Virus record (IMG/VR): IMGVR_UViG_3300025647_000017
Reading direction: 5' to 3' (one strand)
DNA: 20,000 nt
DNA from: an uncultured virus (IMG/VR IMGVR_UViG_3300025647_000017)
Lineage: Duplodnaviria; Heunggongvirae; Uroviricota; Caudoviricetes
Made by a program: the position numbers and the translations under genes. The notes beneath the pieces were generated by a model. It saw only the letters and a list, made by a program, of their open reading frames with translations, did not search any database and had not been told where the DNA came from. Positions 5,583 through 19,855 of the stretch are shown here, in pieces; the stretch's first letter is position 1; every line of letters starts with the position of its first letter.

Positions 5583-5597
5583 ACTACACTCCTTTAA

Positions 5598-5798: not shown

Positions 5799-5832
5799 AA
5801 ATAAAAATCTCCTTACCGTTTAAGATAAGGAG

Positions 5833-5861: not shown

Positions 5862-5864
5862 ACT

Positions 5865-7448
5865 TTATTTAAAATAGTTTTCCTTGATGTCCCAAATAGA
5901 CTGCTCCTTGAGGAACACACCATCTTTGTATAAGGTAGTCAGAAGTCCAGTCTGTTCTTCTTCCTCCGAACAACTCTGGTGTAGATTAAAGTCCTTGTCT
6001 ACCATCAACAAACCTCGTGCAGACTTCTTGAATACATCACCCATAGGTGTCTTCTGTTGTTCTAGGTTAACAATATTATCATCAATTTCTGCTACAGAGA
6101 AAGTTTGCTTATAACTCATAGAGAATAAATCTCGTGTGTTGTTTTGAAGGTTGGCATAACTACCTTTACCAATCACTAAGTTTATTGCAGAGAATCCTGT
6201 CTCAATCATACGCTCATAGATCTCCTTTTGGTGTTGTTGAGATATTGCCTCCCCATAGATAATTCCAACTTTAGGGTTTAAGAATTTCATCTTGCCTGAG
6301 GGTGTATTTAACTCTTCACCACCAAATACCTCCCATAAGATTTGTAGACTACCTTTACGTTCTAATTCACAATCAGACTCACTATCACCACAAATCACTT
6401 CTAGTGGGCGTTTCTTAGAGCTATCTGGACGCCACACCCACTTAGCAGGTAATCCATTTGCACCATCTTGTCGAGATAGGATTTTATCCTTATTAGCTAA
6501 AGCATATTCACTAATTGAACGGAAGTAATTCTCTGTGTCGGCAACATAAGAAAACATACCCGTTGTGTTATCCGCTAACAACCCAATTAGGGTTTTCTCA
6601 GTATCCTCTGTAATACCACGATATCGTAGTTCAGACAATAAACGACTAATATCTGCATGTTCAGACGCACGTATACTAACAGCAATTGGTGCATCTGTCT
6701 TAGGGTTGTAATCGTAGTATTGCGTTAGGAAATCAATAACAGCAACAGTATCACTGCCAATAAATGGAATAGAAGATGCACTACCTACACGCATACCATG
6801 TTCTGGTCCCATCATCCCACGAAATTCGAAGTTGTGGACACAGAATGGTAGCCACCCAGCAACAACTTCCACGGGTGCAGAGATGTTACCGTAATATTTT
6901 GACTGCTGATAAAACTGGTCAATAATAGTAGCAGTATTAATCATAGGGTAGATTAAATTACTTGATAAAGTTTCAAGATTATTTACCAACCACCCATAAC
7001 CCTCGAGGGTGTTCTTACTTGTGAAGATTGGTAATCCAATAGGGTAGCGAACACCCTCATCAATAGAACGAATCTCTAATGGTAAATAACCTAGTGTATG
7101 TAACCCCATAATATCTTCAATATAATCTTTATGATCAATCACTACGTCACCACCAAAGTGAGAAGTTAATCTTACAATAATACGAGATAATACCTCATCT
7201 ACAGGAGTTTTAAAGAACACTTCAAACAAATTATGGATATATTTGAATGTATGACGTGTACCATAGATTACCAAATTACCATCACTGTGATCAGAGAAAG
7301 TGAAGTATGCGTTCTTACGTGCAGTAAAGTTACTGTAGGAAGATAACACCTTAGTAGGGCTACCTTTAAACATCTCATGGTTGTGTAACACATTCATGCC
7401 AATCTTATAACTATCCACTAGTGCTTCGATTTGTAAATTAATACTCAT
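5865..7448 (-). CDS. Nicotinamide phosphoribosyltransferase-like protein (NAMPT/NadV family; candidate Namat)
   Basis: 527 aa; DSYK, HNFEFRG, ASEHA, RPDSS, YGEAI and KKSARG motifs match the NAMPT family with some substitutions. Confidence 0.85.
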   Translation of the reverse strand: MSINLQIEALVDSYKIGMNVLHNHEMFKGSPTKVLSSYSNFTARKNAYFTFSDHSDGNLVIYGTRHTFKYIHNLFEVFFKTPVDEVLSRIIVRLTSHFGGDVVIDHKDYIEDIMGLHTLGYLPLEIRSIDEGVRYPIGLPIFTSKNTLEGYGWLVNNLETLSSNLIYPMINTATIIDQFYQQSKYYGNISAPVEVVAGWLPFCVHNFEFRGMMGPEHGMRVGSASSIPFIGSDTVAVIDFLTQYYDYNPKTDAPIAVSIRASEHADISRLLSELRYRGITEDTEKTLIGLLADNTTGMFSYVADTENYFRSISEYALANKDKILSRQDGANGLPAKWVWRPDSSKKRPLEVICGDSESDCELERKGSLQILWEVFGGEELNTPSGKMKFLNPKVGIIYGEAISQQHQKEIYERMIETGFSAINLVIGKGSYANLQNNTRDLFSMSYKQTFSVAEIDDNIVNLEQQKTPMGDVFKKSARGLLMVDKDFNLHQSCSEEEEQTGLLTTLYKDGVFLKEQSIWDIKENYFK

Positions 7449-7459: not shown

Positions 7460-8317
7460 TTATTTATTCAAATTAAAATTAGTAATATCTTGTTTGTTGA
7501 GATACTTACCAACTGTATGGTAACAGTACACATTATCAATCAAACCTTTTAAACTGTCAAGACCTTTTGCACCAATCATATGGGTAATGTAAAGATCTAC
7601 TTGTTTTGCACCAACCTCTTTTAATGCTTTGGCTAAGGTAATGAACGTACCACCGTAATCTAGTAAATCATCTGGGATTAACACTACCTTCCCTGTAAAA
7701 TCTACATCAGAGGGTAATAGGGTCTTGATAATCTTACCTGTACTAATATCACGTTCCTTTCCACAGTTGTATACATCAACCCTTAAGTGATCAGCAATAC
7801 TAGCAGCCTTATCAATTGCACCTTTATCTGGTGCTAGGATGATATCATATTTAGTATTAAAGTCATGAGGTAAGGATTGCTTAAAGCATTCAAGTTGAGA
7901 CTTTTCTACAATGTTTAAACCAAGGCGATACTTATCACAAATACCATACACAGCCTTCTTATTGTGCATATCACAAACATGGACCTCATCAAAACCTTCA
8001 ATATCTGCCAAAGACCATAGAAACATTTTAAGTGGTAATGGATTACCATCCTCAAACACTCTATCAGCACGTCCATAGATCATGTATGGTATATGTAAAT
8101 ATAGTGGAACATTACATTGTAACTTCATTTCATCAATACAACTCATAAGCATACGTAGCTCCTCAATAACTCGATACGCTGGTGTTGTTGGGCAAACGTT
8201 GATGCTGATATACTTGGGTTCTTTAGGTAGATTATCTAATTTAAATGTTATCGCCCCATCACTAAATTCAACCATATTAACTGGTATTTCTTTATTATCT
8301 GCAAATACTGTAATCAT
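7460..8317 (-). CDS. Ribose-phosphate pyrophosphokinase-like protein (candidate Adps)
   Basis: 285 aa; FSDG, PYMIYGRADR, DMH, APDKGA, KERD and the PRT motif IPDDLLDYGGTF. Confidence 0.88.
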   Translation of the reverse strand: MITVFADNKEIPVNMVEFSDGAITFKLDNLPKEPKYISINVCPTTPAYRVIEELRMLMSCIDEMKLQCNVPLYLHIPYMIYGRADRVFEDGNPLPLKMFLWSLADIEGFDEVHVCDMHNKKAVYGICDKYRLGLNIVEKSQLECFKQSLPHDFNTKYDIILAPDKGAIDKAASIADHLRVDVYNCGKERDISTGKIIKTLLPSDVDFTGKVVLIPDDLLDYGGTFITLAKALKEVGAKQVDLYITHMIGAKGLDSLKGLIDNVYCYHTVGKYLNKQDITNFNLNK

Positions 8318-8382: not shown

Positions 8383-8817
8383 TTATGGTAACAACTTCAA
8401 ATTAGAACGTAAATTATTATTCTGTCTCTGCAGCACTTCTTCTGGTACTTCGTGTACATTACCACTGTCATGTCTGTTTTCTACGATAAGACTAATAACA
8501 TCATAGTTGTATTGTTCTGCCAATTCAATATAAGGTTTGATTTCCTTTTCAGTGGTAGAAGTGTTATGGACAATGATGACACCAATACCCAACTCCATAA
8601 AGTCATCAACTATACCTTTACACCACTTATGAGCTGCAGCTAAATTCTCTACTTTGAAATTGTAATTACCTTCCTCGTCATAATGAAAGTCATCTGCTGC
8701 CACAGCGTAACAACCTTTACTTCCAATATCATTGTCAATAAGATCTTGCAGCCAATCAGCCAAAGTTGTCTTACCTGCGCCACTACAACCTCTAAGTATA
8801 ATAAGTTTATTTTTCAT
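8383..8817 (-). CDS. P-loop kinase (AAA_33/polynucleotide-kinase-like)
   Basis: Walker A RGCSGAGKTT, AADDF, HNTST; start reassigned to ATG 8817 after GAGG; overlaps the RNA ligase stop. Confidence 0.75.
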   Translation of the reverse strand: MKNKLIILRGCSGAGKTTLADWLQDLIDNDIGSKGCYAVAADDFHYDEEGNYNFKVENLAAAHKWCKGIVDDFMELGIGVIIVHNTSTTEKEIKPYIELAEQYNYDVISLIVENRHDSGNVHEVPEEVLQRQNNNLRSNLKLLP

Positions 8818-9697
8818 TAAAATAGTCCTCAATTAATTGTCTACGTTCATTCTCACTAAAAGAATAATAAACTTCTTTAGTGTAACCGTCAAGTAAATAC
8901 TGGTGGAAATCATAAAATTCTTCATCGATTTGTTTCTTGAATTCAGTAGGATTATCAAATGCTAAATCAATACGTTTACGTCCCATGCGGAGGAAAGCTT
9001 TCTTACTCAAATAATGAGGTGACTTTAGTTTACATAACACAACTCCAGTTTTGGCACACAATATCATATAACCTTCTTTATTAGTTTCAGGTATATCTTT
9101 GAATTTCATTAACCCAACAGAAGGTCTATGACAATGTAATAAACGTGCCATATGATCTAACACCCATTCACTGGACAATTCTCCAGAGTTGGTAGATCTA
9201 ATACCAATTAAATAAGCTCCCTCATCTTCATATACAATATGTGGGTCTGAGTTATCACAAATTTCAAACATATGTGTATACCCAGTAAGCATCATATCTG
9301 TTGCTAAAGGTTCAATCCACTTACGGGCTAAGTCTGCATATTCAGAGTCAATTGTACCAGTGGTAGAGATAATCAATCCATACTTACGTGTCATAGTAGC
9401 ACACCCTAGGAAACCATTAATTTTGGTAGGTATTTCTACCATACGTTCAGGATCAATAGTAACTCCATTCTCACCAAGGTTAAATACTTTCTTAAATGGG
9501 TGTACAATAATATTATCATCTTCATCTACGACTAAGCCACGGCACTCTAGTAGACGTTCATCTAAGTGCCACAGGTTATCCCAGAATACTTTCTTAGTGT
9601 ATTTTAGGATCGACAAACCTTTATATTTACCTTCAGTATAAGTTTTCTTCTTAACCAAACCTTGTTCAATTAAATCATCCACATTAAATTTAGCCAT
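8807..9697 (-). CDS. RNA ligase, T4 Rnl1-like
   Basis: ECRGLV; nucleotidyltransferase motifs I KINGF, III MFEI, IV KEGYMI, V KLKS. Confidence 0.8.
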   Translation of the reverse strand: MAKFNVDDLIEQGLVKKKTYTEGKYKGLSILKYTKKVFWDNLWHLDERLLECRGLVVDEDDNIIVHPFKKVFNLGENGVTIDPERMVEIPTKINGFLGCATMTRKYGLIISTTGTIDSEYADLARKWIEPLATDMMLTGYTHMFEICDNSDPHIVYEDEGAYLIGIRSTNSGELSSEWVLDHMARLLHCHRPSVGLMKFKDIPETNKEGYMILCAKTGVVLCKLKSPHYLSKKAFLRMGRKRIDLAFDNPTEFKKQIDEEFYDFHQYLLDGYTKEVYYSFSENERRQLIEDYFNEK

Positions 9698-10259
9698 TAT
9701 TTCTTCTCCCTACAACTTCAATTTGTTTCAACTCAGATACCACATCTTCAAGGTTTAATATTTTACCGTGAGCATCCCAACCTACATCCATAGTACGACC
9801 TTCAATACCAGAAGGAGAATCATGCAAGTGTCCGTGAAGCGCTATGCTACCATGATCACACTCGTTCCAATGCTTGATTGGGTAGTGCATCATACAAAGT
9901 TTAACACCATTAAATCTAAATTCCAAATAATCATAGAAAGGTACTCCCATAGCTCCTAGAACCTTCCTACAATGGTTTCCAGCAACCCAAGTTATATTGC
10001 CATTAAGTTGAGATATGATTGCCTCAGTAGCTTCTCTACCTTTAAATGAGAAGTCACCTAAGCTAATAACCTCATCATCAACACCAACTATAGAGTTCCA
10101 ATGCTCAATCAATGCTGCATTCATATCATCAACATTAGACCAAGGTCGAGTATCAGGACAGAATCGTAAGACCCCTGTATGGTAGAAATGTAAATCGCTG
10201 GTGATAAAGTATCTGGTGTCAGTGTTAGATGTATTAATTTTCTGTCCAAATTTAATCAC
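9690..10259 (-). CDS. Calcineurin-like metallophosphoesterase
   Basis: SDLHFYH, LGDFS, GNH, HYP and LHGHLH motifs; GTG start with AGGAGG SD. Confidence 0.88.
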   Translation of the reverse strand: MIKFGQKINTSNTDTRYFITSDLHFYHTGVLRFCPDTRPWSNVDDMNAALIEHWNSIVGVDDEVISLGDFSFKGREATEAIISQLNGNITWVAGNHCRKVLGAMGVPFYDYLEFRFNGVKLCMMHYPIKHWNECDHGSIALHGHLHDSPSGIEGRTMDVGWDAHGKILNLEDVVSELKQIEVVGRRNNG

Positions 10260-10291
10260 TTTGTAAAGCCTCCTATTTAAATTAGACGATA

Positions 10292-10320
10292 AATATACAA
10301 TACTTAAATCTACCTGTCAA
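10292..10320 (-). promoter_or_regulatory. Sigma70-type promoter for the phosphoesterase-ligase-kinase-NAD genes
   Basis: TTGACA (10320-10315)-17 nt-TATATT (10297-10292). Confidence 0.65.
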
Positions 10321-10370
10321 CCTATAAAATAAAACCCACACAAATTAATACATGGGCTTGATGGTTTAGT

Positions 10371-11477
10371 CTACTTATTCAGTTCAGTAATATACCATGT
10401 ACGTGCTTTAGTTGATAGGTATTTTCCCACTTCCTTCATTGTAAGGTTATTACTTTCAAGGACATCACCTTCTTCTTTATTAATGTCTTTACTTACCCAA
10501 CTAAGGAATGCACCAATTAACTTCTGGTCTTTACCTACCTCAGCTAAGCCTTGTTGTAGTCTATTCTCTGTGGCGGAATACTCTACAAACTCTTGAATTG
10601 AATTTAACTTTTCTACATTGACTGAAGCTACAGATTTAACTTTAGACACAGAATGTTTTTCACCTTTAGTTTTAAACCAATTACCACTGTCCCAGCAATG
10701 TTCATCACTAACTGGAGTCCATACTAACCCCTCTCCAAGGACTTGTGGTTTACCTGCGGCGCTCATTAGGTTAAGTTGTTTTGACACAGGACACTCAGCC
10801 TCACAAGCTTCAGTGTAACCTACTAGAGTGTTCTGGACAAACATAGGATTCTGGAAATCAATAGTGACCTTCTTTGTAGGAAAATCTATGATAGCGTAGA
10901 AACCGTCAGCTTGGGTATCATTATTAGTAAGCCCATAAGTTAGTTCTACTGGCAACCAACCTTGTTTCAGTGTTTGGTCAGTATCCCCAGCCTTGATACC
11001 AAAAATAAATAAAGACTTCTTAGGCAAGAACGAGATACCAACCGAACTCTGAATACCACTTCCACACCATTCACCTGAAATCTTAAGAGGGTATAACTCA
11101 ACACCATTGTAAGCTTTGGCAAAAGTCTTTGCTCTTTCTATAATAGTGTACAGAGAATCTAACCTACGAACCATTGTTTGAGCGAACTCAGCATTATCTG
11201 AAAGTAAAGTAAATCCTCCATTTTTAATATAACCTAGTAAATTATTCTTACTATGGAACGAAATAACCCCGTCTTCATCAACTACAATACTAGCATTAGT
11301 CCCATGTAACTTCACAGTACCAATGTATTCAATAGTAGGTGCAATAGCAAGTTCATTTAAGATAACATTACCATCTGCATCAAACCCATTAAATTTAGCT
11401 TGTTGTTGAATATTCTTAACCACATTACGGAATTGACCAGTAGAGTGGAATGAGTAGTTTGTTGGTTGTTGTGACAT
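10371..11477 (-). CDS. RNA ligase, Rnl2 family
   Basis: Motifs I KLHGTNA, III SGEWCG, IIIa FIFGI, IV GEGLVW, V FKTKGEKH. Confidence 0.82.
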   Translation of the reverse strand: MSQQPTNYSFHSTGQFRNVVKNIQQQAKFNGFDADGNVILNELAIAPTIEYIGTVKLHGTNASIVVDEDGVISFHSKNNLLGYIKNGGFTLLSDNAEFAQTMVRRLDSLYTIIERAKTFAKAYNGVELYPLKISGEWCGSGIQSSVGISFLPKKSLFIFGIKAGDTDQTLKQGWLPVELTYGLTNNDTQADGFYAIIDFPTKKVTIDFQNPMFVQNTLVGYTEACEAECPVSKQLNLMSAAGKPQVLGEGLVWTPVSDEHCWDSGNWFKTKGEKHSVSKVKSVASVNVEKLNSIQEFVEYSATENRLQQGLAEVGKDQKLIGAFLSWVSKDINKEEGDVLESNNLTMKEVGKYLSTKARTWYITELNK

Positions 11478-11700: not shown

Positions 11701-12414
11701 TTACTTGATGCGGCTTCTGTGGGCAGCCAATGCCGTGGGGGAGGAGATTGTTGGTAGTGGGTAGGCTTTATGCAATTTAGTCTTTTGCAGAAAAGCCATA
11801 CAATCGCCAGCGCAGTCAACCCAGTCATCCTTGATCGATGCTGTAGATGGACTTCCATCAAAAGCTTCTAACTCTTTGTAGAAAGCCTCTAAAGTGGCTT
11901 TATTTTCAAAAGAACTTTCAACTATATGTACTAACCCATTCTGACATGCAGAAGAGAATATAGAGAAACGCTTTACTTTGCCACCTTTTACGTTACCAAC
12001 TTCAGAACCTCTTACATGAAAACCTTCATTTGTAAGCATCTTAGCTAAGTCTTCAAACTGCGCCTTACCAGCGCCACTCTCTTTAGGCAGTAATATATAA
12101 GTATCTTCTCCATCCCATTGAGCTTGTTGCAACATCCATGTATTTCTCTCGCCAAAGCGTTTCCTAAACCTACCAACTACATCAGTTTTAGGGTCTTTTA
12201 TCTCTGGGTGATAATTAGCAACTATAAAATATAGGCCGTCCTTTCTAATCATACGTACTGATGCAGAATAATCTGGATATCTATTTTTGTCACTAGGTTC
12301 AGAATGAGCTAAATCCCATGCTCTACATGCTAAACCTCCAACTGGCTCATTATCTACTTTGTGTAACCACTCCCTCTGGAATAGGTTACTCCCTTCTGGT
12401 CTTGCTAGCCAATT
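11701..12414 (-). CDS. terL: terL exon 6 (nuclease domain, 237 codons)
   Basis: NWLARPEG...RAWDLA...PDYSA...KDDWVD. Confidence 0.9.
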   Translation of the reverse strand, partial: NWLARPEGSNLFQREWLHKVDNEPVGGLACRAWDLAHSEPSDKNRYPDYSASVRMIRKDGLYFIVANYHPEIKDPKTDVVGRFRKRFGERNTWMLQQAQWDGEDTYILLPKESGAGKAQFEDLAKMLTNEGFHVRGSEVGNVKGGKVKRFSIFSSACQNGLVHIVESSFENKATLEAFYKELEAFDGSPSTASIKDDWVDCAGDCMAFLQKTKLHKAYPLPTISSPTALAAHRSRIK

Positions 12415-14297
12415 CGATTTGTTACAAAATTGTTAAATCTTGCACCTTACGGTCTCTATGTCACCATAGAAGTTCAGACTATATCTTTACCTATTAAGGT
12501 ATCTAACATTTCCACCTACTAGAAGTAAGCGTACACCATTTCTGGTTAGTCGTTGCACTACACAATTATATATTTTGCATAGCTCAGTATTGTCTCAGAG
12601 AGATATCCACTGAATTAAATAGATTTATAAAGACGGCAATTGTTCACCGTCTAGTAGTCTTGCCCTGTTAATCTTAGTCTGTGCCTTAAGTGCAGACAGA
12701 TACTTCGGATTTTGTTTGATTAGGGCTGGATTCTTAACTCCTTGTTTTATAACAAGGAGTTTGGACTATATCTTCACCTCTAAAGGTGTTCTATTTTCGA
12801 GTATAAGCACCCTACACCCTAACGGGTTAGTCTCTGAAGGTGTTAACCTATGGTTAACGTCCCTGCTGATTGTCTTTAGTTTATAAAGAGTTCCCAGCAA
12901 TTAAAAGAATTTTCACCATGAAATTACTAACATGGGCGACAATCATCTATCGAATATATTTCCCCCAATAAAACAAAACGTCATTGGAGGGACGTACACT
13001 GTCTTATCTTCAATTGGATTATACACATAACATAGGTCTGGGTATTGCTCTGCCAATGTTTCAGGATCATCTGCGAACACTGGGGTATCATCAACTACCA
13101 AGAAATATCTTATATGCCCTAATTTACTCTCATCAAACACTCCAGTTTCATCTAAATAATACTCTACCCATTGAAAAACCCAACTATCTGCATCTGGGTT
13201 GGTAGTGGCTAACATAAATGAATCACTGTCTGCAGCAGAACGCATACGTCCCATTAAATATAAAAACTGCGAACAAGTGAAGTGAGTTAGTTCATCGAAT
13301 CCGACAAAAGAATATTGTAAACCTTGCTTGTAACCTATTGATTACTATGGACTATATCACTGTCTACTTAGTAGACACTCTATTTTCGAGATTGTATTAA
13401 TCCCTACACCCTAACGGGTTAGTCTCTGAAGGTGTTAACCTAGGGTTAACGTCCCTGCTGATTGGTCACTACGTGACTATCCCAGCAATTAAAAGAGTTA
13501 TTCGAAACACATTACTGTATTAAGCCACCAAATTTTAATGGTTACCTTCCGCGTCACTTTCATGCTCAAGGTGTGTAAATTTAAGGTTGCCTCCTTTATT
13601 ACCCTCTGCACCACTGAACATGATTTCCATGTCCTTTTCTCTCACCCTTGTTCCTAGGGGTTGGTATAATTTCTTTGCCTCACTAAACAGACCACCTGCT
13701 GCTTTCAATGGAGGGGAAGTCCTACGGAACATTACCCCCTCAAAGTTGGGGTCGTTGTGAGCGTAATACCCTGCCTTCAATAAGAGTAACCTACTTTTGC
13801 CAGATCCTGCCAAACTGGACTATTATTCTTTATGTCACCATAAAGCTTAGATCATATCTTCCACATATAAGTGGCTTTCCATTTCGAGTATAAATACCCT
13901 ACACCTCTTCAGGTTGATCGTTGCACACAGTATAATTAAATACCTTCGCTCAGTATTGTCTCGTAGAGATATCCACTGAATTAGAAAAGTTGATTATCGA
14001 GGTGCCACAGGATTTACTAGCACCTCCGTAGATCATTACATCTACCTTCATTTGCGCTGCTAACGCTTGTTTCACTACCTTACGTGGATCGTTACACCAC
14101 TCTATGCATTACTGCACAAGTTGAGACTATATCTTATTACTCTATTGTTTCGAGTTCACTTGAACTCTACATCCTTTCGGATTAGTCGTTACACGTTTTT
14201 AATTCGCTAGGTATTATCCTATAAGGGACCTTCACCTAATTAAATAGATTTATAGTAGGCAAACATTACCTACTTGCGGGGATAATTCATTACTCAT
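11701..14297 (-). CDS. terL: Terminase large subunit, six exons: 14297-14268, 14072-14019, 13810-13538, 13326-12949, 12732-12646, 12414-11701; 511 aa after splicing
   Basis: Spliced product: MSNELSPQVG^KQALAAQMKVDVMIYGGA^AGSGKS (Walker A)...EGNH^QGLQYSFVGFDELTHF (Walker B)...ATTNP...NIFD^NP...RLLDG^NW...RAWDLA...DDWVD; GAGAGG SD before ATG 14297; all joins in frame. Confidence 0.93.
12415..12645 (-). mobile_element. Group I intron 5 (231 nt, ORF-less)
   Basis: P1 AGACGGU/GCCGUCU; P10 CAAUU/AAUUG; R GCAACGACUA; S AAGAUAUAGUC; terminal G at 12415. Confidence 0.92.
12646..12732 (-). CDS. terL: terL exon 5 (29 codons)
   Basis: NPALIKQNPKYLSALKAQTKINRARLLDG. Confidence 0.88.
12733..12948 (-). 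mobile_element. Group I intron 4 (216 nt, ORF-less)
   Basis: P1 CGAU/GUCG; P10 GAUU/AAUC; P, Q, R, S elements as in intron 3; terminal G at 12733. Confidence 0.92.
12949..13326 (-). CDS. terL: terL exon 4 (126 codons)
   Basis: QGLQYSFVGFDELTHF (Walker B)...ATTNP...GGNIFD. Confidence 0.9.
13327..13537 (-). mobile_element. Group I intron 3 (211 nt, ORF-less)
   Basis: P1 CCAU/GUGG; P AAUUGCUGGGA; Q AAUCAGCAGG; R UUCAGAGACUA; S GAUAUAGUCC; terminal G at 13327. Confidence 0.92.
13538..13810 (-). CDS. terL: terL exon 3 (91 codons)
   Basis: AGSGKSRLLL...MFRRT...DAEGNH. Confidence 0.9.
13811..14018 (-). mobile_element. Group I intron 2 (208 nt, ORF-less) inside Walker A
   Basis: P1 GAGGUGCU/GGCACCUC; P10 AUCCUGU/GCAGGAU; P7 GAUCA/UGAUC, a compensatory variant of GACUA/UAGUC; terminal G at 13811. 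Confidence 0.92.
14019..14072 (-). CDS. terL: terL exon 2 (18 codons)
   Basis: KQALAAQMKVDVMIYGGA, the first half of Walker A. Confidence 0.88.
14073..14267 (-). mobile_element. Group I intron 1 (195 nt, ORF-less, IA2-like)
   Basis: P1 AGUAGGU/GCCUACU with U-G at the 5' splice site; P10 UGUUU/AAACA; R GUAACGACUA; S AAGAUAUAGUC; two hairpins after P7; terminal G at 14073. Confidence 0.9.
14268..14297 (-). CDS. terL: terL exon 1 (10 codons)
   Basis: MSNELSPQVG; the start overlaps the endonuclease stop. Confidence 0.85.
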
Positions 14298-15753
14298 AAC
14301 TGTACCTCTCTTTGTATAAATCTTCTATAAAAGATATATCTATATTATTGGAGAAGATGTCAGAGATATTAGGTAATATTACATCATCATTACTCCCGTC
14401 TATAATATCATTAACCATCTCGTATAGAGTACTATCTAGGTTGAATATTTCCGTATACCCTCCGAATTTTATATTTGATTTTACCTGTAGTGGCTTGAAG
14501 AACATTTTTAAACTACTTTCAATCCTAGCACAATCTAGATATGACATCCTTCTGTAATTGAGGAATGTAAAAACAGAGTCTAGTGGTAGGTCTTTCTTGT
14601 ATGTATACTCCCTACTAGATAGGCTACTAGTAATACCTATTTTATAAACATTATCATCTAAGGAATCCACATATCCTAGGTAAAAATACCCATACTTCTT
14701 ATGGATATTAGGTATTTTCAATATAGAGGCTATAGACCACCTATTCATACCTAACTTACCACACGTAGGGCAACCAGAGTTTTTATTCTTATCCCTGTGC
14801 ATTAGAGGGGTAACATTAAACCATTCATCGTGCTGATTACACTTAAGTTTAACCTTAGTGGTATTATTTACATACTGCACTAAGGAGTAATCTAGCGCAC
14901 CATTCCCATATTCCACAATAGAATCAGAGATAAATTGGTCTTTACCTAAAAACATACCTTCCCTAGAACATTTCTGACAACCTTGCCCATTTACATGGTT
15001 ATTGGCTATAACAGAAAATTCACCATGCCCTTGTTCCTTGCAAAACACTTTAACATTTTCAACAGCATTGATATATTCAGTATTGGTGTAGTCGTATAAG
15101 TTATTATGTACCTCCATTGCCTCTTTAATAAAAGCTTCGTTGGTTTTTGTCATGGATATTTTACGATCTTCTTCTCCGCATGTAGGGCAACCTTGCCCTT
15201 GTATATGTGCAGACGGTCTCTGTTTAAAAGGGATGTTGTGTTTTGTACATAAGATCTCCATCATAGTGCGACTACAAACATAGTCCTCTACGTTATACAC
15301 ATATTTATCTCCGTGCAATGCTTTTGCTTTAGTGATGAAGACCTCACCTTCTTTTAAAATTTTACAATTACCACACCCACCATAGGGAGTATCTCTAACA
15401 GAAGATAAAGTAGATACATAGTGTCCATGTAACATACAGAACATATCTTGTTTAGAGTGTATGGTTTGGTACTCAGGGTTATCTAATACCTCATATTTAT
15501 CACCGTGAGCCTTTTCAATTAAACCCTTCTGTATTTCAAAGTTCTCTCGTCTTCGTATAGCCAATGCACAATCACCGCACCTTTGTCTTGCGTGAATATG
15601 AGAGGAAGGCATCATAGTAAACTCACCATGTATTGGGCATATAATCCTAATACTAGTCAACATAGCTATATATGGGTCTGGGTATTCATAATAGTCACCG
15701 TGGATAGCCTTCGCTTTTTCTATGAAAGTTTTAGTATTAAATTTTTCAGCCAA
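14290..15753 (-). CDS. Free-standing putative homing endonuclease: five Cys/His zinc-binding repeats plus a C-terminal GIY-YIG-like (T5orf172-type) domain
   Basis: Five ~62-70 aa repeats of the form FI.KA...HG..Y.Y...C..H..F.....H....C..C; C-terminus GYFYL...YKIGIT...R...E...GYTEIF; TTG start probably 15753 after GGAGG. Confidence 0.75.
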   Translation of the reverse strand: MAEKFNTKTFIEKAKAIHGDYYEYPDPYIAMLTSIRIICPIHGEFTMMPSSHIHARQRCGDCALAIRRRENFEIQKGLIEKAHGDKYEVLDNPEYQTIHSKQDMFCMLHGHYVSTLSSVRDTPYGGCGNCKILKEGEVFITKAKALHGDKYVYNVEDYVCSRTMMEILCTKHNIPFKQRPSAHIQGQGCPTCGEEDRKISMTKTNEAFIKEAMEVHNNLYDYTNTEYINAVENVKVFCKEQGHGEFSVIANNHVNGQGCQKCSREGMFLGKDQFISDSIVEYGNGALDYSLVQYVNNTTKVKLKCNQHDEWFNVTPLMHRDKNKNSGCPTCGKLGMNRWSIASILKIPNIHKKYGYFYLGYVDSLDDNVYKIGITSSLSSREYTYKKDLPLDSVFTFLNYRRMSYLDCARIESSLKMFFKPLQVKSNIKFGGYTEIFNLDSTLYEMVNDIIDGSNDDVILPNISDIFSNNIDISFIEDLYKERYSYE

Positions 15754-16105
15754 TAGCAACCTCCACCTTATCTACATACCACTCAACATAGTTCCCTATA
15801 TAAAAGTTTGGTATACCGTCTAACACTTCTTCCCCAAACTTATCAAACAAAGTCTTAACTTCTTTCCACTTATCTTCTTGGAATTCAGAAGCTATATAGA
15901 TTTCATTATCATAATCAGAAAGGTCATGTGATGTACCACCATACGTATAATCTATATAATCTTCCTGAATAGACGGATCTAACCCTGCAATCAACATTGA
16001 AGTTCCATGACCTACGTGCTTCATAGAGCATTCGTCTTGATCACCACATCTATCAATCTGCCATAACAATTGATTAACCTTCAAATTAGCTTGTTTCTTA
16101 TTCAT
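15746..16105 (-). CDS. Hypothetical protein
   Basis: Start reassigned to ATG 16105 (MNKKQ) after AGGAG; overlaps the start of the next gene. Confidence 0.65.
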   Translation of the reverse strand: MNKKQANLKVNQLLWQIDRCGDQDECSMKHVGHGTSMLIAGLDPSIQEDYIDYTYGGTSHDLSDYDNEIYIASEFQEDKWKEVKTLFDKFGEEVLDGIPNFYIGNYVEWYVDKVEVAIG

Positions 16106-16115
16106 ATCCTCTCCT

Positions 16116-16472
16116 TTAGTGTAGTTTATCTTTAGTACCCATATCAATCATAATACTATTAATATGAGGTATCTTATTTAATAATTCAATCAGCTTATCC
16201 AATTCTACGTACCCGTAGAGGTCGCTGACACGTTCTTTCTCTCCTCCCTCCATCATCATATCATACTCCATAATTAACTCTGCTACGCCACTCTCAGGAG
16301 TCACAGTACCATGAAATGTATCTTGATAGTGTGTGAATGAGAATCCTACTACCTCATCACCTTCTTCATCTACATACATCCCAAGTGACCACACATGGTT
16401 TAGTTTACTTAATTTATCATATGCCTCTAGTGTAGAAGGTTTGCAGCACCCATTCTTATAATCTTCTAACAT
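16116..16472 (-). CDS. Hypothetical acidic protein
   Basis: Start reassigned to ATG 16472 (MLEDYK) after AAGGAG. Confidence 0.65.
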   Translation of the reverse strand: MLEDYKNGCCKPSTLEAYDKLSKLNHVWSLGMYVDEEGDEVVGFSFTHYQDTFHGTVTPESGVAELIMEYDMMMEGGEKERVSDLYGYVELDKLIELLNKIPHINSIMIDMGTKDKLH

Positions 16473-16761
16473 TGGTAATCTCCTTAGTGTTTGGGTTGTA
16501 GGTAGCCTCAACAGTGTAGTCACTACCTTCAGAAGCAGCTTTATCCCAAGCTCTATATAACCCATTACGTTGGTCTTCAGCACTAATCTCATCTAACACT
16601 TTAACCAACTTCAAACACTGCAACTCATTCTCCCACATAATCTTAAACTCCGTTTGAAGTTCATCAATTGACAGGGTAGTGTTGCAGTACTCCTTAATTT
16701 GGTTAAGTTTATATCCAGCTTTCCAACAGAACTTTAAGTCTTCATATAGTTTAGTTTCCAC
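16456..16761 (-). CDS. Hypothetical protein carrying a terminase-nuclease-like motif
   Basis: GTG start, AGGAGG SD, 101 aa; contains RAWDKAASEGSDYTV. Confidence 0.65.
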   Translation of the reverse strand: METKLYEDLKFCWKAGYKLNQIKEYCNTTLSIDELQTEFKIMWENELQCLKLVKVLDEISAEDQRNGLYRAWDKAASEGSDYTVEATYNPNTKEITNVRRL

Positions 16762-16763
16762 AG

Positions 16764-17003
16764 TTACTTACCTCCTGTAAACAACATCACAATGGTCATA
16801 TCACCAAAGATGAACCCTGACACTGTTGCTATGATTAGTAACATACCCAACAGGAAGTCACTTGTAACATTTTCTAAGCCACTTTGTTTACTTAGGTATA
16901 ACTTTACTCCATAGCCACACCACATAGCCGCTACAATCCACCACGGAACCCATGCACCTACTATCCAACCAATTAAACATACGAAACCTATTGTGATGAC
17001 CAT
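16764..17003 (-). CDS. Small membrane protein
   Basis: Start reassigned to ATG 17003 after GGAG; two to three hydrophobic segments. Confidence 0.6.
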   Translation of the reverse strand: MVITIGFVCLIGWIVGAWVPWWIVAAMWCGYGVKLYLSKQSGLENVTSDFLLGMLLIIATVSGFIFGDMTIVMLFTGGK

Positions 17004-17004
17004 A

Positions 17005-17205
17005 CTATCTCTCCACCTTATCACAACTCACATTAAAATCATTCCCAGCACTCAAGTCATCGAATACCTCAACACCATTAATCATTAAGTAGAATCTGCC
17101 TCCATCATACCCTGTTTCAAAGGATGTAACACCTTTTGGCAATTTCACTTCTGATTCATTATTAAAACACTGGTTAGAATAATCTGTGAACACAACTTTA
17201 CTCAT
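17005..17205 (-). CDS. Hypothetical protein
   Basis: 66 aa, AAGGAG SD, first gene after a promoter. Confidence 0.65.
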   Translation of the reverse strand: MSKVVFTDYSNQCFNNESEVKLPKGVTSFETGYDGGRFYLMINGVEVFDDLSAGNDFNVSCDKVER

Positions 17206-17236
17206 AATTTTTCTCCTTCAATTAATGTAAGACCTA

Positions 17237-17265
17237 ATAGTAACTATACATTTAGTACCTGTCAA
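17237..17265 (-). promoter_or_regulatory. Sigma70-type promoter
   Basis: TTGACA (17265-17260)-17 nt-TACTAT (17242-17237). Confidence 0.7.
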
Positions 17266-17284
17266 CAACTAATCCTAAATTTTA

Positions 17285-17470
17285 GATAAAATAAATCCCG
17301 CTCTCACACTAAACGATGAGGCGGGATGAAGGAGGAATGTTCGAGAACCTATGAAGGAAGTTCTCTGGAAGGCTTTGGCAACCTTAATGCTGCTCTCATT
17401 TTAGTGTGTTGTATAGATACATATAGCAAGGAGTTACAAGGAGGGAGTAATCATCCTCACTGTATCTATA
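17285..17470 (-). ncRNA. Candidate ~185-nt small RNA or attenuator
   Basis: Own promoter (TTGCTT 17504-17499; TGA-TATAAT 17483-17475), 10-bp 5' stem (17461-17470/17412-17421), internal hairpin, terminator at 17285-17327, no ORF. Confidence 0.5.
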
Positions 17471-17507
17471 GGTAATTATATCAGATGGTTAATAGGGTAA
17501 GCAAATG

Positions 17508-17846
17508 TTAACCTTGTTTCTGTTCTGGAGGTGTGAATGCTACTAAGCTGATTGATGGTGCATTCGACTTTGGTAAAGCTAATGCTGCTGCTAACCCTTC
17601 TGCTTCTGCATCTTCTTTCTCATCCGCAGCCAAGGTAGCAGCCTCTGATTCCTTCATTTCTTTATATAATTTCAGAGTAGTATCAGCAGCACGAAGAACA
17701 GTACTATCAGCAGCCTTATCGTCATTAAGAATAGCCTCTATACGCTTCATAGCTTGTTCTACTAGAGTAGGTACCTTAGCCTTCATTTTAGCAGGAATTT
17801 CCCGCCAGTTACGCTCAGCCACATTTTCTGTTGTAGGTCTAGCCAT
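17508..17846 (-). CDS. Putative terminase small subunit
   Basis: 112 aa from ATG 17846 (MARPT), helical core, acidic linker, C-terminal beta-like PSISLVAF; lies upstream of terL; function inferred from architecture only. Confidence 0.45.
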   Translation of the reverse strand: MARPTTENVAERNWREIPAKMKAKVPTLVEQAMKRIEAILNDDKAADSTVLRAADTTLKLYKEMKESEAATLAADEKEDAEAEGLAAALALPKSNAPSISLVAFTPPEQKQG

Positions 17847-18051
17847 TTTCATCACCTAATAATTCTTGTTTATTATATTCATCTAGTGCAACATTAAATA
17901 GTTGTTCACCAGTAATTGGTAGTTCATACTCATCTTCATAACCCTTACATGAATTACACATGTAATCGTACTTAGAGTTTGATACATATGAGGGGTTTTT
18001 AATTATCTCGCCACATGGACAGATCACGTTTATTTCCTTATTGGATTTCAT
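17839..18051 (-). CDS. Small putative zinc-ribbon protein
   Basis: CPCG...CNSC motif pair; overlaps the start of the next gene. Confidence 0.55.
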   Translation of the reverse strand: MKSNKEINVICPCGEIIKNPSYVSNSKYDYMCNSCKGYEDEYELPITGEQLFNVALDEYNKQELLGDENG

Positions 18052-18099
18052 TTCCAACTGTTATTGTGTTATAAACACTGTTGTTTAATCTATAATAGT

Positions 18100-18128
18100 A
18101 TGTTACCACGTATGAATATGTTGGTCAA
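18100..18128 (-). promoter_or_regulatory. Sigma70-type promoter
   Basis: TTGACC-17 nt-TAACAT with an extended -10 TG. Confidence 0.5.
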
Positions 18129-18161
18129 ACTTATGAGGTTGTATGTCAAATTACAGGTATG

Positions 18162-18184
18162 AAAAAGCCCACCATAGGTGAGCT
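18162..18184 (-). terminator. Rho-independent terminator
   Basis: Minus strand AGCTCACC-TAT-GGTGGGCT followed by TTTT. Confidence 0.7.
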
Positions 18185-18189
18185 AACAG

Positions 18190-18579
18190 TTATAGTATGA
18201 ATTCTATCTTATTTAATAAGAATTGGTAATCGTAATCTGAGTTCCAAACTCTTTGATACACACAAGATAACATGTCTACATCCTCTACCATAAATTCATT
18301 ACCAACCACAATAAAGTTAATAATCTGGTGTAATGAAGCTATAACGTTTGATTTATATGGTGCATGTTGCAGTCGTTGTAGTGCAACACTTATATCATGC
18401 AAATAGGAATGTACCGCATTAGAAGGTATATTATCCTTAAGACAAGCTTGTTTTACCCTTACATCAGCTAACAATAACTCTATACGCTTAAATATCTTAT
18501 TGTGCAAGCCACTTGGTACATCGGGGCCAAGTCTTTGGTATACTTTAGCTAATTCCGCTATTTCTGTAAAATTATTCAT
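18190..18579 (-). CDS. Hypothetical protein
   Basis: 129 aa ORF with AGGAG SD. Confidence 0.65.
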   Translation of the reverse strand: MNNFTEIAELAKVYQRLGPDVPSGLHNKIFKRIELLLADVRVKQACLKDNIPSNAVHSYLHDISVALQRLQHAPYKSNVIASLHQIINFIVVGNEFMVEDVDMLSCVYQRVWNSDYDYQFLLNKIEFIL

Positions 18580-18630
18580 TTGTTTATTATTCTCCTGTCA
18601 CTTCCTAACTTAAGGAAATTTATTGGGTTG

Positions 18631-18655
18631 ATAAAAGCCCCGCATCTGCGGGAAC
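18631..18655 (-). terminator. Terminator closing the non-coding RNA region
   Basis: Minus strand CCCGC-AGAT-GCGGG then GCTTTTAT. Confidence 0.65.
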
Positions 18656-19402
18656 ATTTGTATGAGTGCATACCTGAAGCTAATCTGTCTTCAGTGGAAC
18701 TCAATGGTTCGGTACGTCTACCTAGATATTCGCAGTATCTTACTTCTGACTTTATAACAGAGCTTAGTAGAGGAACCTAACTCACAAGTAAGGACGTTTC
18801 CAAGGTTATTTATAAAGTTTTTAGTCATTACTACGGTTGCTACTTATATACCGACCAACCTCTAATAATAGGAGAAAATCGGTGTTGCGTTCTTTGTTCA
18901 CATGGTCGCTTACGTGTCTAATTTCTAATCCACCTAGCAGTGGTAACTTATTAGGAGAGTTGTATATGCACTATATTTCAGTGGAAGTAACTGCATACTA
19001 TTCTACCACCTTTACACACGAAACCTGTTTAAAGTCTGCTGTGCTATTGCCGACTAACTTGCCTTACGGCTACCATATGACGACATCATCAATTAAATTG
19101 AGAGAGGAACTTCATACTACCTTCTGTTCAACGCATCTGCGTTCACTTAATATAATGGTTTCAGTATAACCTCCACCACAGTGTCTACCATATGTAATTA
19201 TAACTAGAACTCATTAATAATGAGGGAAGTGTATAAATACTAACAAACAAGACCTTGTAATTAAAACCTATTACCGCATCGCACTGACCATTTTACTGGT
19301 TGGGAAGGAAACCTACTGCCTAGGTAAACATTAAACTATCTAGCGCCTCAGTAGGGACAAGTCATCCTTATCGTCTTGAGTTTATACACATCAGAAGTGT
19401 TA

Positions 19403-19475
19403 ATATGATTGTGAGATTCGAACTCACGTCCCCGTCTTTAGAACGGATATCTAGGCCAACTGAAAATAAATCATA
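19403..19475 (-). tRNA. Degenerate tRNA or pseudo-tRNA (nominal anticodon TAA, uncertain)
   Basis: Acceptor TATGATT/AATCATA; canonical T arm GTGAG-TTCGAAT-CTCAC; anticodon stem TCCGT/ACGGG with loop TCTAAAG; weak D stem, no U33, no encoded CCA. Confidence 0.6.
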
Positions 19476-19673
19476 TTATTAAAGTATCTGTTATCTAGTC
19501 GCTTGCTAGAGGCTGCGAAACATAAAATAAGCCATGCTACTGCACAGTCAAAACACTTTAATAATATAAACTATTTACGTCAGTTACTCGTTCAAAACAC
19601 CTTCTCACACTACACTGAGCAAAACTGTACTATATCTCAATGGTGTTGTCTAGTACTGACGGTGTTTTAAAAT

Positions 19674-19810
19674 TGGTCGGGAGTTGTAGACGTTACCCTA
19701 CACTATGAAGCCTCCACGCCATGATGCGTCCTCTGGTCATATTCCTTCGATAAAGGTGTCTCCAGTGCAATCATGACTCGGCACCCACGAACATCTTCGT
19801 AGAACTCCCG
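19674..19810 (-). ncRNA. 137-nt tRNA-like RNA with an acceptor stem and encoded CCA
   Basis: CGGGAGT/ACTCCCG 7-bp stem plus A plus CCA; adjacent stem-loop TGTAG-GGTAACGT-CTACA in the T-arm position. Confidence 0.65.
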
Positions 19811-19826
19811 TTTGTTTCTATAAGGT

Positions 19827-19855
19827 ATCTTAACCTTCTTTCTTGTTATTGTCAA
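19827..19855 (-). promoter_or_regulatory. Sigma70-type promoter for the ncRNA cluster
   Basis: TTGACA (19855-19850)-17 nt-TAAGAT (19832-19827). Confidence 0.75.

What the first reader, a model, noticed from the sequence alone, without database searches (positions are those of the whole stretch)
11701..14297. Terminase large subunit interrupted by five minimal ORF-less group I introns
Seen: three apparent terL fragments plus intervening sequence resolve into six exons (10, 18, 91, 126, 29, 237 codons) and five introns (195, 208, 211, 216, 231 nt). Each intron has an exon-terminal U paired to G in P1, group I core elements and a terminal G; P10 is clear in four. Splicing gives an uninterrupted 511-aa TerL with intact Walker A/B and nuclease motifs. 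Known: group I introns occur in phage terL and other genes, usually one to a few per gene. Inference: five in ~1.9 kb, with micro-exons of 30, 54 and 87 nt, is extreme; packaging would need five successful splicing events, which may act as a timing or dosage control.
Basis: partly seen in the sequence, partly recalled or inferred. Interest (0 to 1): 0.9.

Follow-up and report, generated by a model that had tools for sequence, protein, structure and literature searches.

The report
Phage terminase gene with five introns
The DNA-packaging motor gene of this uncultured phage really is cut into six pieces by five tiny self-splicing group I introns, the highest count I found for one phage gene but a known kind of selfish-element infestation.

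Summary
Confirmed.

- **Intron identity:** all five match Rfam RF00028 (E 1e-9 to 1e-18; three reach the gathering score).
- **Splice sites:** each intron has an exon-terminal U paired to G in P1, a 4-7 bp P10 and a terminal G.
- **Structure:** the core helices covary (25 of 39 pairs compensatory).
- **Product:** the 511-aa spliced protein is colinear with uninterrupted TerL homologs at every join.
- **Natural controls:** Shewanella phage 1/40 and a ~98% identical contig lack introns at sites 1, 3 and 4 and carry introns at two other sites. That makes seven insertion sites in this clade. Exon differences cluster at the polymorphic sites.

One oddity is that intron 1 has no P8 hairpin. No RNA data exist, so splicing is inferred.

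Published maxima I found are three introns per phage gene, and four gaps in a crAss-like capsid gene. Earlier notes from this scan, on other DNA, list four in terL. This is a new member of a known kind and moderately interesting.

The parts
11701..14297 (-). terL gene (six exons, five introns; 2597 nt, of which 1061 nt are intron)
   Evidence: Spliced frame open for 511 codons. Pfam Terminase_6N hits exon 4 and Terminase_6C hits exon 6. The product aligns as a single HSP to 10 of 10 uninterrupted full-length terL loci.
14268..14297 (-). Exon 1, 10 codons, ending in the conserved PQxG motif
   Evidence: Aligns with homolog N-termini with no gap at the join. In runs X1 and X2 an allele has a variant exon 1 fused directly to exon 2. 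A GAGAGG ribosome-binding-like site lies upstream (read).
14073..14267 (-). Intron 1 (195 nt), site after codon 10; reduced core with no P8 hairpin and a 3-bp P6
   Evidence: RF00028 48.8 bits, E 1.1e-10. P1 has U.G plus 6 bp, P10 has 5 bp, 0 of 2000 shuffles reach both. Folding shows P7.1 and P7.2 but no P8.
14019..14072 (-). Exon 2, 18 codons (micro-exon), ending in the first half of Walker A
   Evidence: Against phage 1/40: 4 synonymous and 1 nonsynonymous differences.
13811..14018 (-). Intron 2 (208 nt), site after codon 28, inside the Walker A loop
   Evidence: RF00028 43.5 bits, E 4.2e-9. P1 has U.G plus 7 bp and P10 has 7 bp. The ortholog at the same site in phage 1/40 is 90.4% identical over 198 nt. 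P7 keeps 5 of 5 pairs through a double compensatory swap.
13538..13810 (-). Exon 3, 91 codons
   Evidence: 100% identical as protein in L004.
13327..13537 (-). Intron 3 (211 nt), site after codon 119
   Evidence: RF00028 53.1 bits. The site is uninterrupted in phage 1/40 and in L002. Paralog of intron 4: 82.5% identity over a 126-nt core.
12949..13326 (-). Exon 4, 126 codons, with the Walker B-like VGFDE
   Evidence: Pfam Terminase_6N, E 1.1e-7.
12733..12948 (-). Intron 4 (216 nt), site after codon 245
   Evidence: RF00028 74.9 bits. The site is uninterrupted in phage 1/40 and L002. 79% identical over 173 nt to an HNH-bearing intron in the tape measure gene of Shewanella phage 1/4.
12646..12732 (-). 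Exon 5, 29 codons (micro-exon)
   Evidence: 13 synonymous and 0 nonsynonymous differences from phage 1/40. No homolog of 60 has an indel within 3 residues of either of its joins.
12415..12645 (-). Intron 5 (231 nt), site after codon 274
   Evidence: RF00028 69.4 bits. Orthologs at the same site: 93.5% identical in phage 1/40 and 91.7% in L002.
11701..12414 (-). Exon 6, 237 codons plus stop; nuclease domain
   Evidence: Pfam Terminase_6C, E 9.2e-7. 150 longer homologs at E <= 0.001.
14290..15759 (-). 489-aa endonuclease-like ORF (T5orf172/MUG113 C-terminal domain) whose stop overlaps the terL start codon; candidate free-standing homing endonuclease
   Evidence: Pfam T5orf172, E 4.3e-7. PHROG 681 'endonuclease', E 1.1e-70, and PHROG 559, E 2.7e-42. 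574 phage records hold relatives, up to 9 places per record. Phage 1/40 has no such ORF annotated just upstream of terL.

Best explanation
terL of this phage, a relative of Shewanella phage 1/40, is interrupted by five small ORF-less group I introns of the phage IA type, which has P7.1 and P7.2 hairpins.

**Inferred expression route.**
- The gene is transcribed as one precursor.
- Each intron folds, pairs its internal guide with the U-ending 5' exon (P1) and with the 3' exon (P10), and excises itself by the usual two guanosine-initiated transesterifications.
- The six exons join into an mRNA for a 511-aa terminase. Walker A exists only after the exon 2/3 ligation.
- Ribosomes on unspliced RNA stop 0-22 codons into each intron.

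**What the introns are.** They are selfish mobile DNA, not a regulatory device.
- They form two paralogous lineages, {I1, I2, I5} and {I3, I4}.
- Their guide sequences have been retargeted to different conserved sites of the same gene.
- Close relatives carry different subsets.

**How they spread (inferred).** Between co-infecting phages they most likely move by double-strand-break repair with co-conversion of flanking exon sequence. The break would be made by endonucleases supplied in trans. Candidates are the T5orf172 ORF abutting terL and HNH genes in sibling introns of relatives.

**Shown versus inferred.** Shown here: intron identity, boundaries, structure, and presence/absence polymorphism at the DNA level. 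Inferred: actual splicing, and the route of mobility.
For: **Model matches.** 5 of 5 introns match RF00028 at E <= 4.2e-9, and 3 of 5 reach the gathering score.

**Splice-site anatomy.** P1 with U.G, P10 of 4-7 bp and a terminal G are present in 5 of 5. Shuffles reach the P1 and P10 values in 0-9 of 2000 trials.

**Covariation.** On nine family members, 95% of cells are paired, against 33-44% when partners are slid. 25 of 39 pairs have changes on both sides. 0 of 500 shuffles reach the score. P7 is 5 of 5 bp in all nine.

**Joins.** There are no query-gap columns at any join in a MAFFT alignment with 60 homologs of 480-540 aa. The nearest homologs are colinear. The spliced protein gives a single HSP to 10 of 10 uninterrupted full-length terL loci.

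**Natural intron-less alleles.**
- Phage 1/40 is continuous at sites 1, 3 and 4.
- L002 is continuous at sites 3 and 4.
- Contigs in X1 and X2 fuse a variant exon 1 to exon 2 exactly at 14072.

**Selection on exons.** pN/pS is 0.13 overall. Micro-exon 5 has 13 synonymous and 0 nonsynonymous differences.

**Persistence.** Contigs from four runs in four studies bridge all five introns at high identity. One run may be the window's source.

**Mobility.**
- The clade has seven insertion sites.
- Orthologous introns are 90-93% identical, while exon synonymous divergence is 0.35-0.73.
- Differences from L002 cluster at the polymorphic sites: 35 of 173 nt there against 53 of 1168 nt elsewhere, Fisher p 3.5e-11, with bins chosen after seeing the data.
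- Relatives of I4 sit in a tape measure gene with an HNH ORF.
- An endonuclease-like ORF abuts terL.
Against: **No RNA evidence.** None of the 16 listed runs is on record as RNA, so splicing is not shown for any intron.

**Weaker members.** I1 and I2 fall just under Rfam's gathering score.

**I1 is structurally reduced.** It has no P8 hairpin and only a 3-bp P6. Whether it can self-splice unaided is therefore open.

**The covariation control is not fully independent.** I derived the structure line from these same sequences, which favours it over the slid controls.

**The co-conversion signal is thin.** It rests on one pairwise comparison with bins chosen after seeing the data. The 5' half of terL is also generally more divergent than the 3' half.

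**The trans-endonuclease role is not shown.** Nothing shows that the T5orf172 ORF cuts terL. Its closeness to terL could be coincidental, because such genes are scattered in many phage genomes.
Confidence: 0.87

Rival explanations
1. The five introns are an evolved control device. Requiring five splicing events delays or limits TerL synthesis and so times DNA packaging. This is the first reader's inference, and the Bastillevirinae paper proposes a similar 'molecular on-switch' idea.
For: - All five introns must be removed to make Walker A and an intact protein.
- Group I splicing needs guanosine, and the discussion of PMC11878797 (passages read) proposes GTP-sensing switches for intron-bearing phage genes.
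- In-frame stops lie 0-22 codons into each intron, so unspliced RNA yields no TerL.
Against: - Intron content differs between near-identical phages. L002 lacks I3 and I4 but has another intron.
- An I1-less allele coexists in two runs.
- 10 of 10 more distant relatives have no intron.
- The variation looks like gain and loss with co-converted flanks. That is the signature of selfish homing, not of a conserved regulatory architecture.
Confidence: 0.08
2. At least one intron, most likely the P8-less I1, no longer self-splices. In that case TerL would be made from an internal start in exon 2, or with a host or phage helper, or this terL allele is on its way to decay.
For: - I1 lacks P8 and has a vestigial P6, while the eight other family members all have P8.
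- I1 scores below Rfam's gathering score.
- Exon 2 contains Met codons.
- Some homologs in the alignment start downstream of the exon 1 region, though these may be truncated gene calls.
- In PMC11878797 (passages read) some phage introns spliced in vivo but not in vitro.
Against: - I1 has the strongest P1/P10 after I2: 6 bp plus U.G, and 5 bp, with 0 of 2000 shuffles reaching both.
- Its P3, P4, P5, P7, P7.1, P7.2 and P9 are intact.
- The exon 1 peptide motif PQxG is conserved in most homologs. 51 of 60 have no deletion within 3 residues of join 1.
- I1 is found next to a second, divergent exon 1 in run X2, so it occurs in more than one background.
- The five-intron architecture recurs in four studies.
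Confidence: 0.12
3. The pieces are separate genes for a multi-subunit or fragmented terminase, and the intervening sequences are ordinary spacers, as the current annotation of phage 1/40 implies with three 'terminase large subunit' CDSs.
For: Phage 1/40's record annotates three separate terL CDSs plus an HNH gene. A table 11 ORF scan of the window also gives three fragments.
Against: - Exons 2 and 5 have no start codon at their 5' ends.
- Walker A is split between two pieces.
- Every spacer matches the group I model and shows covariation.
- Intron-less alleles are continuous exactly at the joins.
Confidence: 0.01

Closest known systems
terL of Shewanella sp. phage 1/40 (KJ018211; Baltic Sea ice isolate)
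   Same: It is the closest sequenced phage: 82.6% nucleotide identity over 57% of the query. It has orthologous ORF-less introns at the Walker A site (90% identical) and at the site after codon 274 (93%). PMC8541194 (passages read) states that group I introns occur in TerL of Shewanella phages 1/4 and 1/40.
   Different: Phage 1/40 has three introns, not five. Its sites 1, 3 and 4 are empty. It has an extra 983-nt HNH-bearing intron after codon 132, a site that is empty in the window. It has no endonuclease ORF annotated just upstream of terL. I could not find or read the original genome paper for these phages in the library.
Staphylococcus phage Twort orf142 (three group I introns in one gene, exon skipping)
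   Same: Several small, related, ORF-less phage-type group I introns sit in one late structural gene. The I5 core matches Twort-like Staphylococcus phage records. I know the paper here only from its title in the reference list of PMC11878797 and that paper's discussion.
   Different: Three introns against five. A different gene (tail tube, per PMC11878797). Splicing was shown experimentally there and is not shown here.
Multi-intron TerL and DNA polymerase genes of Bastillevirinae Bacillus phages, e.g. SIOphi TerL (PMC11878797)
   Same: terL is split by two or three group I introns. Splicing was verified in vitro or in vivo. Internal micro-exons occur, and exon skipping was seen (passages read).
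   Different: Those introns average 802 nt and many carry endonuclease ORFs. Here all five are 195-231 nt and ORF-less, and there are five rather than at most three.
Intron- and intein-rich genes of Zeta-group crAss-like phages (PMC7886860)
   Same: This is the highest published density I found. One capsid gene is in five fragments, and there are up to 14 introns per genome (passages read).
   Different: Those introns were recognised through encoded protein domains in three of four gaps, not by ribozyme models. The hosts are Bacteroidetes and some genomes use alternative genetic codes. Here there are five gaps, and all are ORF-less ribozymes.
Collaborative homing of an ORF-less intron with a neighbouring free-standing endonuclease
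   Same: ORF-less introns lie next to a free-standing endonuclease-like gene, together with flanking-exon mosaicism at polymorphic sites.
   Different: Cleavage of terL by the T5orf172 protein is untested. The resemblance is a lead from memory, not a test.

Membership tests
Group I catalytic intron (Rfam RF00028) | Significant match to the family covariance model | tested here: met
   5 of 5 at E 1.7e-18 to 4.2e-9. 3 of 5 reach the gathering score of 50 bits; I1 scores 48.8 and I2 43.5.
Group I catalytic intron (Rfam RF00028) | 5' splice site after a U that forms a U.G wobble closing P1 with the internal guide sequence | tested here: met
   5 of 5: U.G plus 3-7 further exon base pairs.
Group I catalytic intron (Rfam RF00028) | Terminal guanosine (omega-G) and P10 pairing with the 3' exon | tested here: met
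   5 of 5 end in G. P10 is 5, 7, 4, 4 and 5 bp for I1-I5.
Group I catalytic intron (Rfam RF00028) | Conserved core helices P3, P4, P5, P6, P7 and P9, supported by covariation | tested here: met
   95% of cells paired. 25 of 39 pairs have changes on both sides. 0 of 500 shuffles reach the score. P7 is 5 of 5 bp in all nine members. Caveat: I derived the structure line from these sequences.
Group I catalytic intron (Rfam RF00028) | P8 helix (part of the P3-P8 domain) | tested here: not met
   Met for I2-I5 and for the four relatives' introns. Not met for I1, which has only about 5 nt between the P3 3' strand and J8/7 and no hairpin in the fold. I file I1 as a group I intron by homology to its siblings, with its catalytic competence left open.
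Group I catalytic intron (Rfam RF00028) | Guanosine-dependent self-splicing of the RNA | not testable with these tools
   No RNA run is listed for the locus. It needs in vitro transcription or RT-PCR.
Phage-type subgroup IA (P7.1/P7.2 insertion between P7 and P3'; this definition is recalled) | Two extra hairpins between the P7 5' strand and the P3 3' strand | tested here: met
   P7.1 (4 bp with a tetraloop) and P7.2 fold in all nine members. The I5 core matches 67 phage records, including Staphylococcus, Aeromonas, Vibrio and Bacillus phages.
Terminase large subunit (Pfam Terminase_6N plus Terminase_6C) | ATPase domain with Walker A and B, followed by an RNaseH-like nuclease domain, colinear with family members | tested here: met
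   PF03237 hits exon 4 at E 1.1e-7 and PF17289 hits exon 6 at E 9.2e-7. GAAGSGKS and VGFDE are present in the spliced product. The product is colinear with 60 homologs.
Homing-endonuclease-driven mobile intron | Endonuclease ORF inside the intron | tested here: not met
   The longest stop-free stretch in any intron is 40-50 aa. Any endonuclease must act in trans. Candidates are the ORF at 14290-15759 and HNH genes in relatives' introns.
Homing-endonuclease-driven mobile intron | Presence/absence polymorphism at identical sites, with co-conversion of flanking exon sequence | tested here: inconclusive
   The polymorphism is clear. Clustering of differences near polymorphic sites is strong (35 of 173 nt against 53 of 1168 nt, p 3.5e-11). 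It comes from one pair, with bins chosen after seeing the data.

The most novel reading that the evidence does not exclude
This terL may be a natural nursery of one small ORF-less intron lineage. On this reading, copies colonised at least seven conserved sites of a single gene by retargeting their internal guide sequences. New sites would be seeded by reverse-splicing-type transposition and then spread between co-infecting phages by endonucleases acting in trans. The most reduced copy, I1, would still splice although it has lost the P8 helix. That would make I1 a naturally minimised group I ribozyme, possibly dependent on help from its sibling introns or on a host factor.
Probability: 0.22. 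Interest if true: 0.65.

Novelty: new member of a known kind. Interest (0 to 1): 0.45.

Why it matters
**Annotation.** Gene callers split this gene into three fragments and miss the 30-, 54- and 87-nt exons. The same problem affects the public record of phage 1/40, whose terL is annotated as three CDSs. terL is also the standard phylogenetic marker for tailed phages.

**Biology.** The locus is a compact natural experiment in intron dynamics.
- Three close relatives share a 1.5-kb coding sequence but occupy seven sites in different combinations.
- Sibling introns have been retargeted to new sites.
- Related TerLs carry intein-like insertions two codons from one intron site.
- An endonuclease gene sits next door.

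This makes it a good system for asking how ORF-less introns move and how many an essential gene can carry. The P8-less intron 1 is a specific, cheap test of how far the group I core can be reduced.

Tried and rejected
- **RNA evidence:** The look-up of sequencing runs listed 16 holders in 8 studies, with no RNA holder listed. Expression and splicing could not be examined.
- **Joints in laid DNA contigs:** those, table 5, have short sides (24-44 letters). They connect paralogous intron cores or come from relatives, so I did not interpret them as splice-like deletions.
- **Whole genome:** none is held for the window (error), so I could not look for introns elsewhere in this phage.
- **Metagenome scan for close relatives:** it returned 12 loci. 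One is the same contig as L004 and the rest are 40-55% identical. That gave no further intron-bearing alleles, only uninterrupted genes.
- **Precedent for a P8-less group I intron:** the literature search returned only irrelevant papers. I cannot say whether such introns are described.
- **Four, five or six group I introns in one phage gene:** the two phage papers with 'five group I introns' mean five per genome.
- **Paper search for phage 1/40:** the first attempt was rejected for term format. The redone search did not find the original genome paper.
- **Custom covariance model for a wider survey:** considered, then dropped in favour of exon mapping by tblastn, which is independent of intron type.
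- **MAFFT columns:** they are slightly off in P6, P7.2 (subfamily B) and P9 (subfamily B), and around I1's missing P8. I left P6-inner out of the structure line and read those helices from per-intron folds instead.
Full report
**Observation**

On the minus strand between 14297 and 11701, a table 11 ORF scan shows only three terminase-like fragments. They define six exons of 10, 18, 91, 126, 29 and 237 codons and five intervening sequences of 195, 208, 211, 216 and 231 nt. Joining the exons in a script gives an open frame of 511 codons ending in a stop. The introns make up 1061 of the gene's 2597 nt.

**Are they group I introns?**

- **Rfam matches.** Rfam's RF00028 model finds three of them above its gathering score in the whole window: I4 at 74.9 bits, I5 at 69.4 and I3 at 53.1. 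With permissive filters it finds all five. I1 scores 48.8 bits (E 1.1e-10) and I2 scores 43.5 bits (E 4.2e-9), and there are no further hits in the 20 kb.
- **Splice sites.** Every 5' exon ends in U and every intron ends in G.
- **P1 and P10.** A direct search for the internal guide finds, in each intron, a G that pairs with the exon-terminal U. It is followed by 3-7 bases complementary to the 5' exon and preceded by 4-7 bases complementary to the 3' exon. Shuffles of the intron's first 55 nt reach both values in 0, 0, 1, 9 and 1 of 2000 trials. P10 is therefore present in all five, not four.
- **Peripheral hairpins.** Per-intron folds show P4-P5-P6, P7.1, P7.2, P8 and P9 hairpins, with P7 at 5 of 5 bp in all nine family members examined.
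- **Covariation.** I put a hand-built structure line on a MAFFT alignment of the five introns plus four from relatives. 95% of cells are paired, against 33-44% when partners are slid by 1-3 columns. 25 of 39 pairs change on both sides, and 0 of 500 column shuffles reach the covariation score. The structure was derived from these sequences, so the slid control flatters it. The compensatory changes do not depend on that: one example is the CU/AG to UC/GA swap in P7 of I2 and its ortholog.
- **ORF-less.** The longest stop-free stretch in any intron is 40-50 aa.

**Are the joins right?**

- **Alignment with homologs.** A search with exon 6 returned 150 longer homologs. I aligned 60 of them, those of 480-540 aa, with the spliced product. 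There is no gap column in the query at any join. No homolog has an insertion within three residues of a join. At joins 4 and 5, 0 of 60 have a deletion. At join 3, 36 of 60 have a one-residue deletion two to three residues upstream, but the nearest homologs (P0002, P0017, P0018) are colinear.
- **Uninterrupted relatives.** The spliced protein aligns as a single tblastn HSP to 10 of 10 full-length terL loci at 33-61% identity.
- **Domains.** Pfam finds Terminase_6N in exon 4 and Terminase_6C in exon 6.
- **Selection.** Against phage 1/40 the exons show pN/pS of 0.13. The 87-nt exon 5 has 13 synonymous and no nonsynonymous differences, so the micro-exon is read in the predicted frame.

**Natural controls**

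The nearest sequenced phage is Shewanella sp. phage 1/40, at 82.6% nucleotide identity. Its terL is annotated as three CDSs plus an HNH gene.

- **Phage 1/40.** It is continuous at the window's sites 1, 3 and 4. It shares introns at site 2 (Walker A) and site 5. It has a 983-nt HNH-bearing intron after codon 132.
- **L002.** This viral contig is about 98% identical to the window across exon 6 and downstream. It is continuous at sites 3 and 4, has I5, and has a 241-nt intron inside codon 129.
- **L004.** This contig is 99.8% identical over 6.3 kb and has all five introns with the same scores.
- **Laid DNA contigs.** In contigs from four runs of four studies, pieces bridge every exon-intron boundary. 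In two runs a contig leaves the window exactly at 14072 and continues into a variant exon 1. That is an allele without intron 1. Another contig carries I1 next to a divergent exon 1. One of these runs may be the source of the window.

The clade therefore uses seven insertion sites: after codons 10, 28, 119, 132, 245 and 274, and inside codon 129.

**Relationships and mobility**

- **Two lineages.** The introns form {I1, I2, I5} and {I3, I4}.
- **Orthologs.** Introns at the same site are 90-93% identical between the window and phage 1/40. The exons are 73-91% identical, with synonymous divergence of 0.35-0.73. This suggests recent exchange or very strong constraint.
- **Paralogs.** I3 and I4 share an 82.5% identical 126-nt core, but their guide sequences each fit their own exons. 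The guides were therefore retargeted after duplication.
- **Other genes.** A relative of I4, with an HNH ORF, interrupts the tape measure gene of phage 1/4, and another copy lies elsewhere in phage 1/40. The I5 core matches 67 phage records from Staphylococcus, Aeromonas, Enterococcus, Vibrio, Bacillus and other hosts.
- **Clustered differences.** Between the window and L002 there are 88 differences in 1341 exon nt, of which 5 change an amino acid. They concentrate around the polymorphic sites: 19 of 86 nt from 57 nt 5' of site 3 through site 129, and 16 of 87 nt in exon 5 next to site 4. In distal exon 6 only 18 of 633 nt differ. Fisher p is 3.5e-11, with bins chosen after seeing the data.

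This is what co-conversion during double-strand-break-repair homing would leave. It would not result from clean reverse splicing or precise deletion alone.

No intron encodes an endonuclease. A 489-aa ORF with a T5orf172 domain and strong PHROG 'endonuclease' matches ends inside the terL start codon. Its family is widespread and multi-copy in phages. It is a candidate trans-acting homing enzyme, but its role here is inference.

**How it most likely works**

- **Expression.** I infer ordinary guanosine-initiated self-splicing of five introns from one precursor. Ribosomes halt 0-22 codons into any unspliced intron.
- **Phase.** All five introns are in phase 0, after a codon with U in third position. 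This is probably because a wobble-position U satisfies the U.G requirement at no cost to the protein. That explanation is my inference.
- **Regulation.** Intron content varies among near-identical phages, and more distant relatives have none.

**An anomaly**

I1 has only about 5 nt where the other eight introns have a 12-17 nt P8 hairpin, and its P6 is 3 bp. Its P1 and P10 are strong, and its other helices are intact. Exon 1 is conserved. Whether I1 splices unaided is open. My literature search for P8-less group I introns found nothing relevant.

**Comparison with what is known**

- **PMC8541194** (passages read) states that TerL of Shewanella phages 1/4 and 1/40 contains group I introns.
- **PMC7886860** (passages read) describes a crAss-like capsid gene in five fragments and up to 14 introns per genome.
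- **'Five group I introns'.** The two phage papers with this phrase mean five per genome.
- **Earlier notes of this scan**, on other DNA and unchecked by me, list terL genes with three or four group I introns.

I found no report of five in one phage gene, but my searches were limited to the held library. I rate this a new member of a known kind. The count, the small size and the site polymorphism are notable. The mechanism is standard.

Noticed in passing
window 14290-15759 (-): A 489-aa ORF with a C-terminal T5orf172/MUG113 domain and PHROG 681/559 endonuclease matches. Its stop codon overlaps the terL ATG. Relatives are multi-copy in many phage genomes. It is a possible free-standing homing endonuclease acting on terL.
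   Followed up: partly
P0001, P0009, P0019, P0028, P0040, P0055, P0090 (homologs of the spliced TerL): At least 10 of the 19 homologs longer than 600 aa carry a 145-330 aa insertion in the Walker A loop. It begins with Cys after GG(S/A)AG and ends in Asn before SGKS, so it is intein-like. It lies two codons downstream of intron I2's site. The P-loop is therefore a shared hot spot for introns and inteins. Pfam gave no intein domain for the three I scanned.
   Followed up: partly
window 8383-11477 (-): Directly downstream of terL lies an RNA-repair-like cluster: RNA ligase (10371-11477), phosphoesterase (9690-10259), a T4 Rnl1-like ligase (8807-9697) and a polynucleotide-kinase-like ATPase (8383-8832). 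Next come ribose-phosphate pyrophosphokinase (7460-8317) and nicotinamide phosphoribosyltransferase (5865-7448), then portal, protease, decoration and major head genes.
   Followed up: partly
L010:3001-4558 (Shewanella phage 1/4, KJ018209): The tape measure gene appears split by an unannotated intervening sequence. That sequence holds an HNH gene and two stretches similar to intron I4 (79% over 173 nt and 70.5% over 156 nt). The downstream 'hypothetical protein' may be the rest of the tape measure protein.
   Followed up: partly
L001:2971-5934 (Shewanella phage 1/40, KJ018211): The public annotation lists S140_92 as hypothetical and three separate 'terminase large subunit' CDSs. Exon mapping shows one terL with four exons and three introns, and S140_92 contains the first 28 codons.
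   Followed up: yes
window 12415-14267 (-): All five introns are in phase 0, each after a codon ending in U (GGT, GCT, CAT, GAT, GGT). Every internal exon is therefore a multiple of three, so exon skipping would stay in frame. In the relatives, the site after codon 132 is also phase 0 and the codon 129 site is phase 2.
   Followed up: partly
window 14268-14272, seen in run X2 (loose end at 14270): A contig matches the window through intron 1 and then switches to a divergent exon 1 only 3 nt upstream of the intron. This looks like a recombination boundary hugging the intron.
   Followed up: no
window 4750-5864 and 16600-20000: These stretches have only short or unmatched ORFs. For example, 15746-16147 and 18190-18579 have no PHROG or Pfam match. 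I did not examine them further.
   Followed up: no
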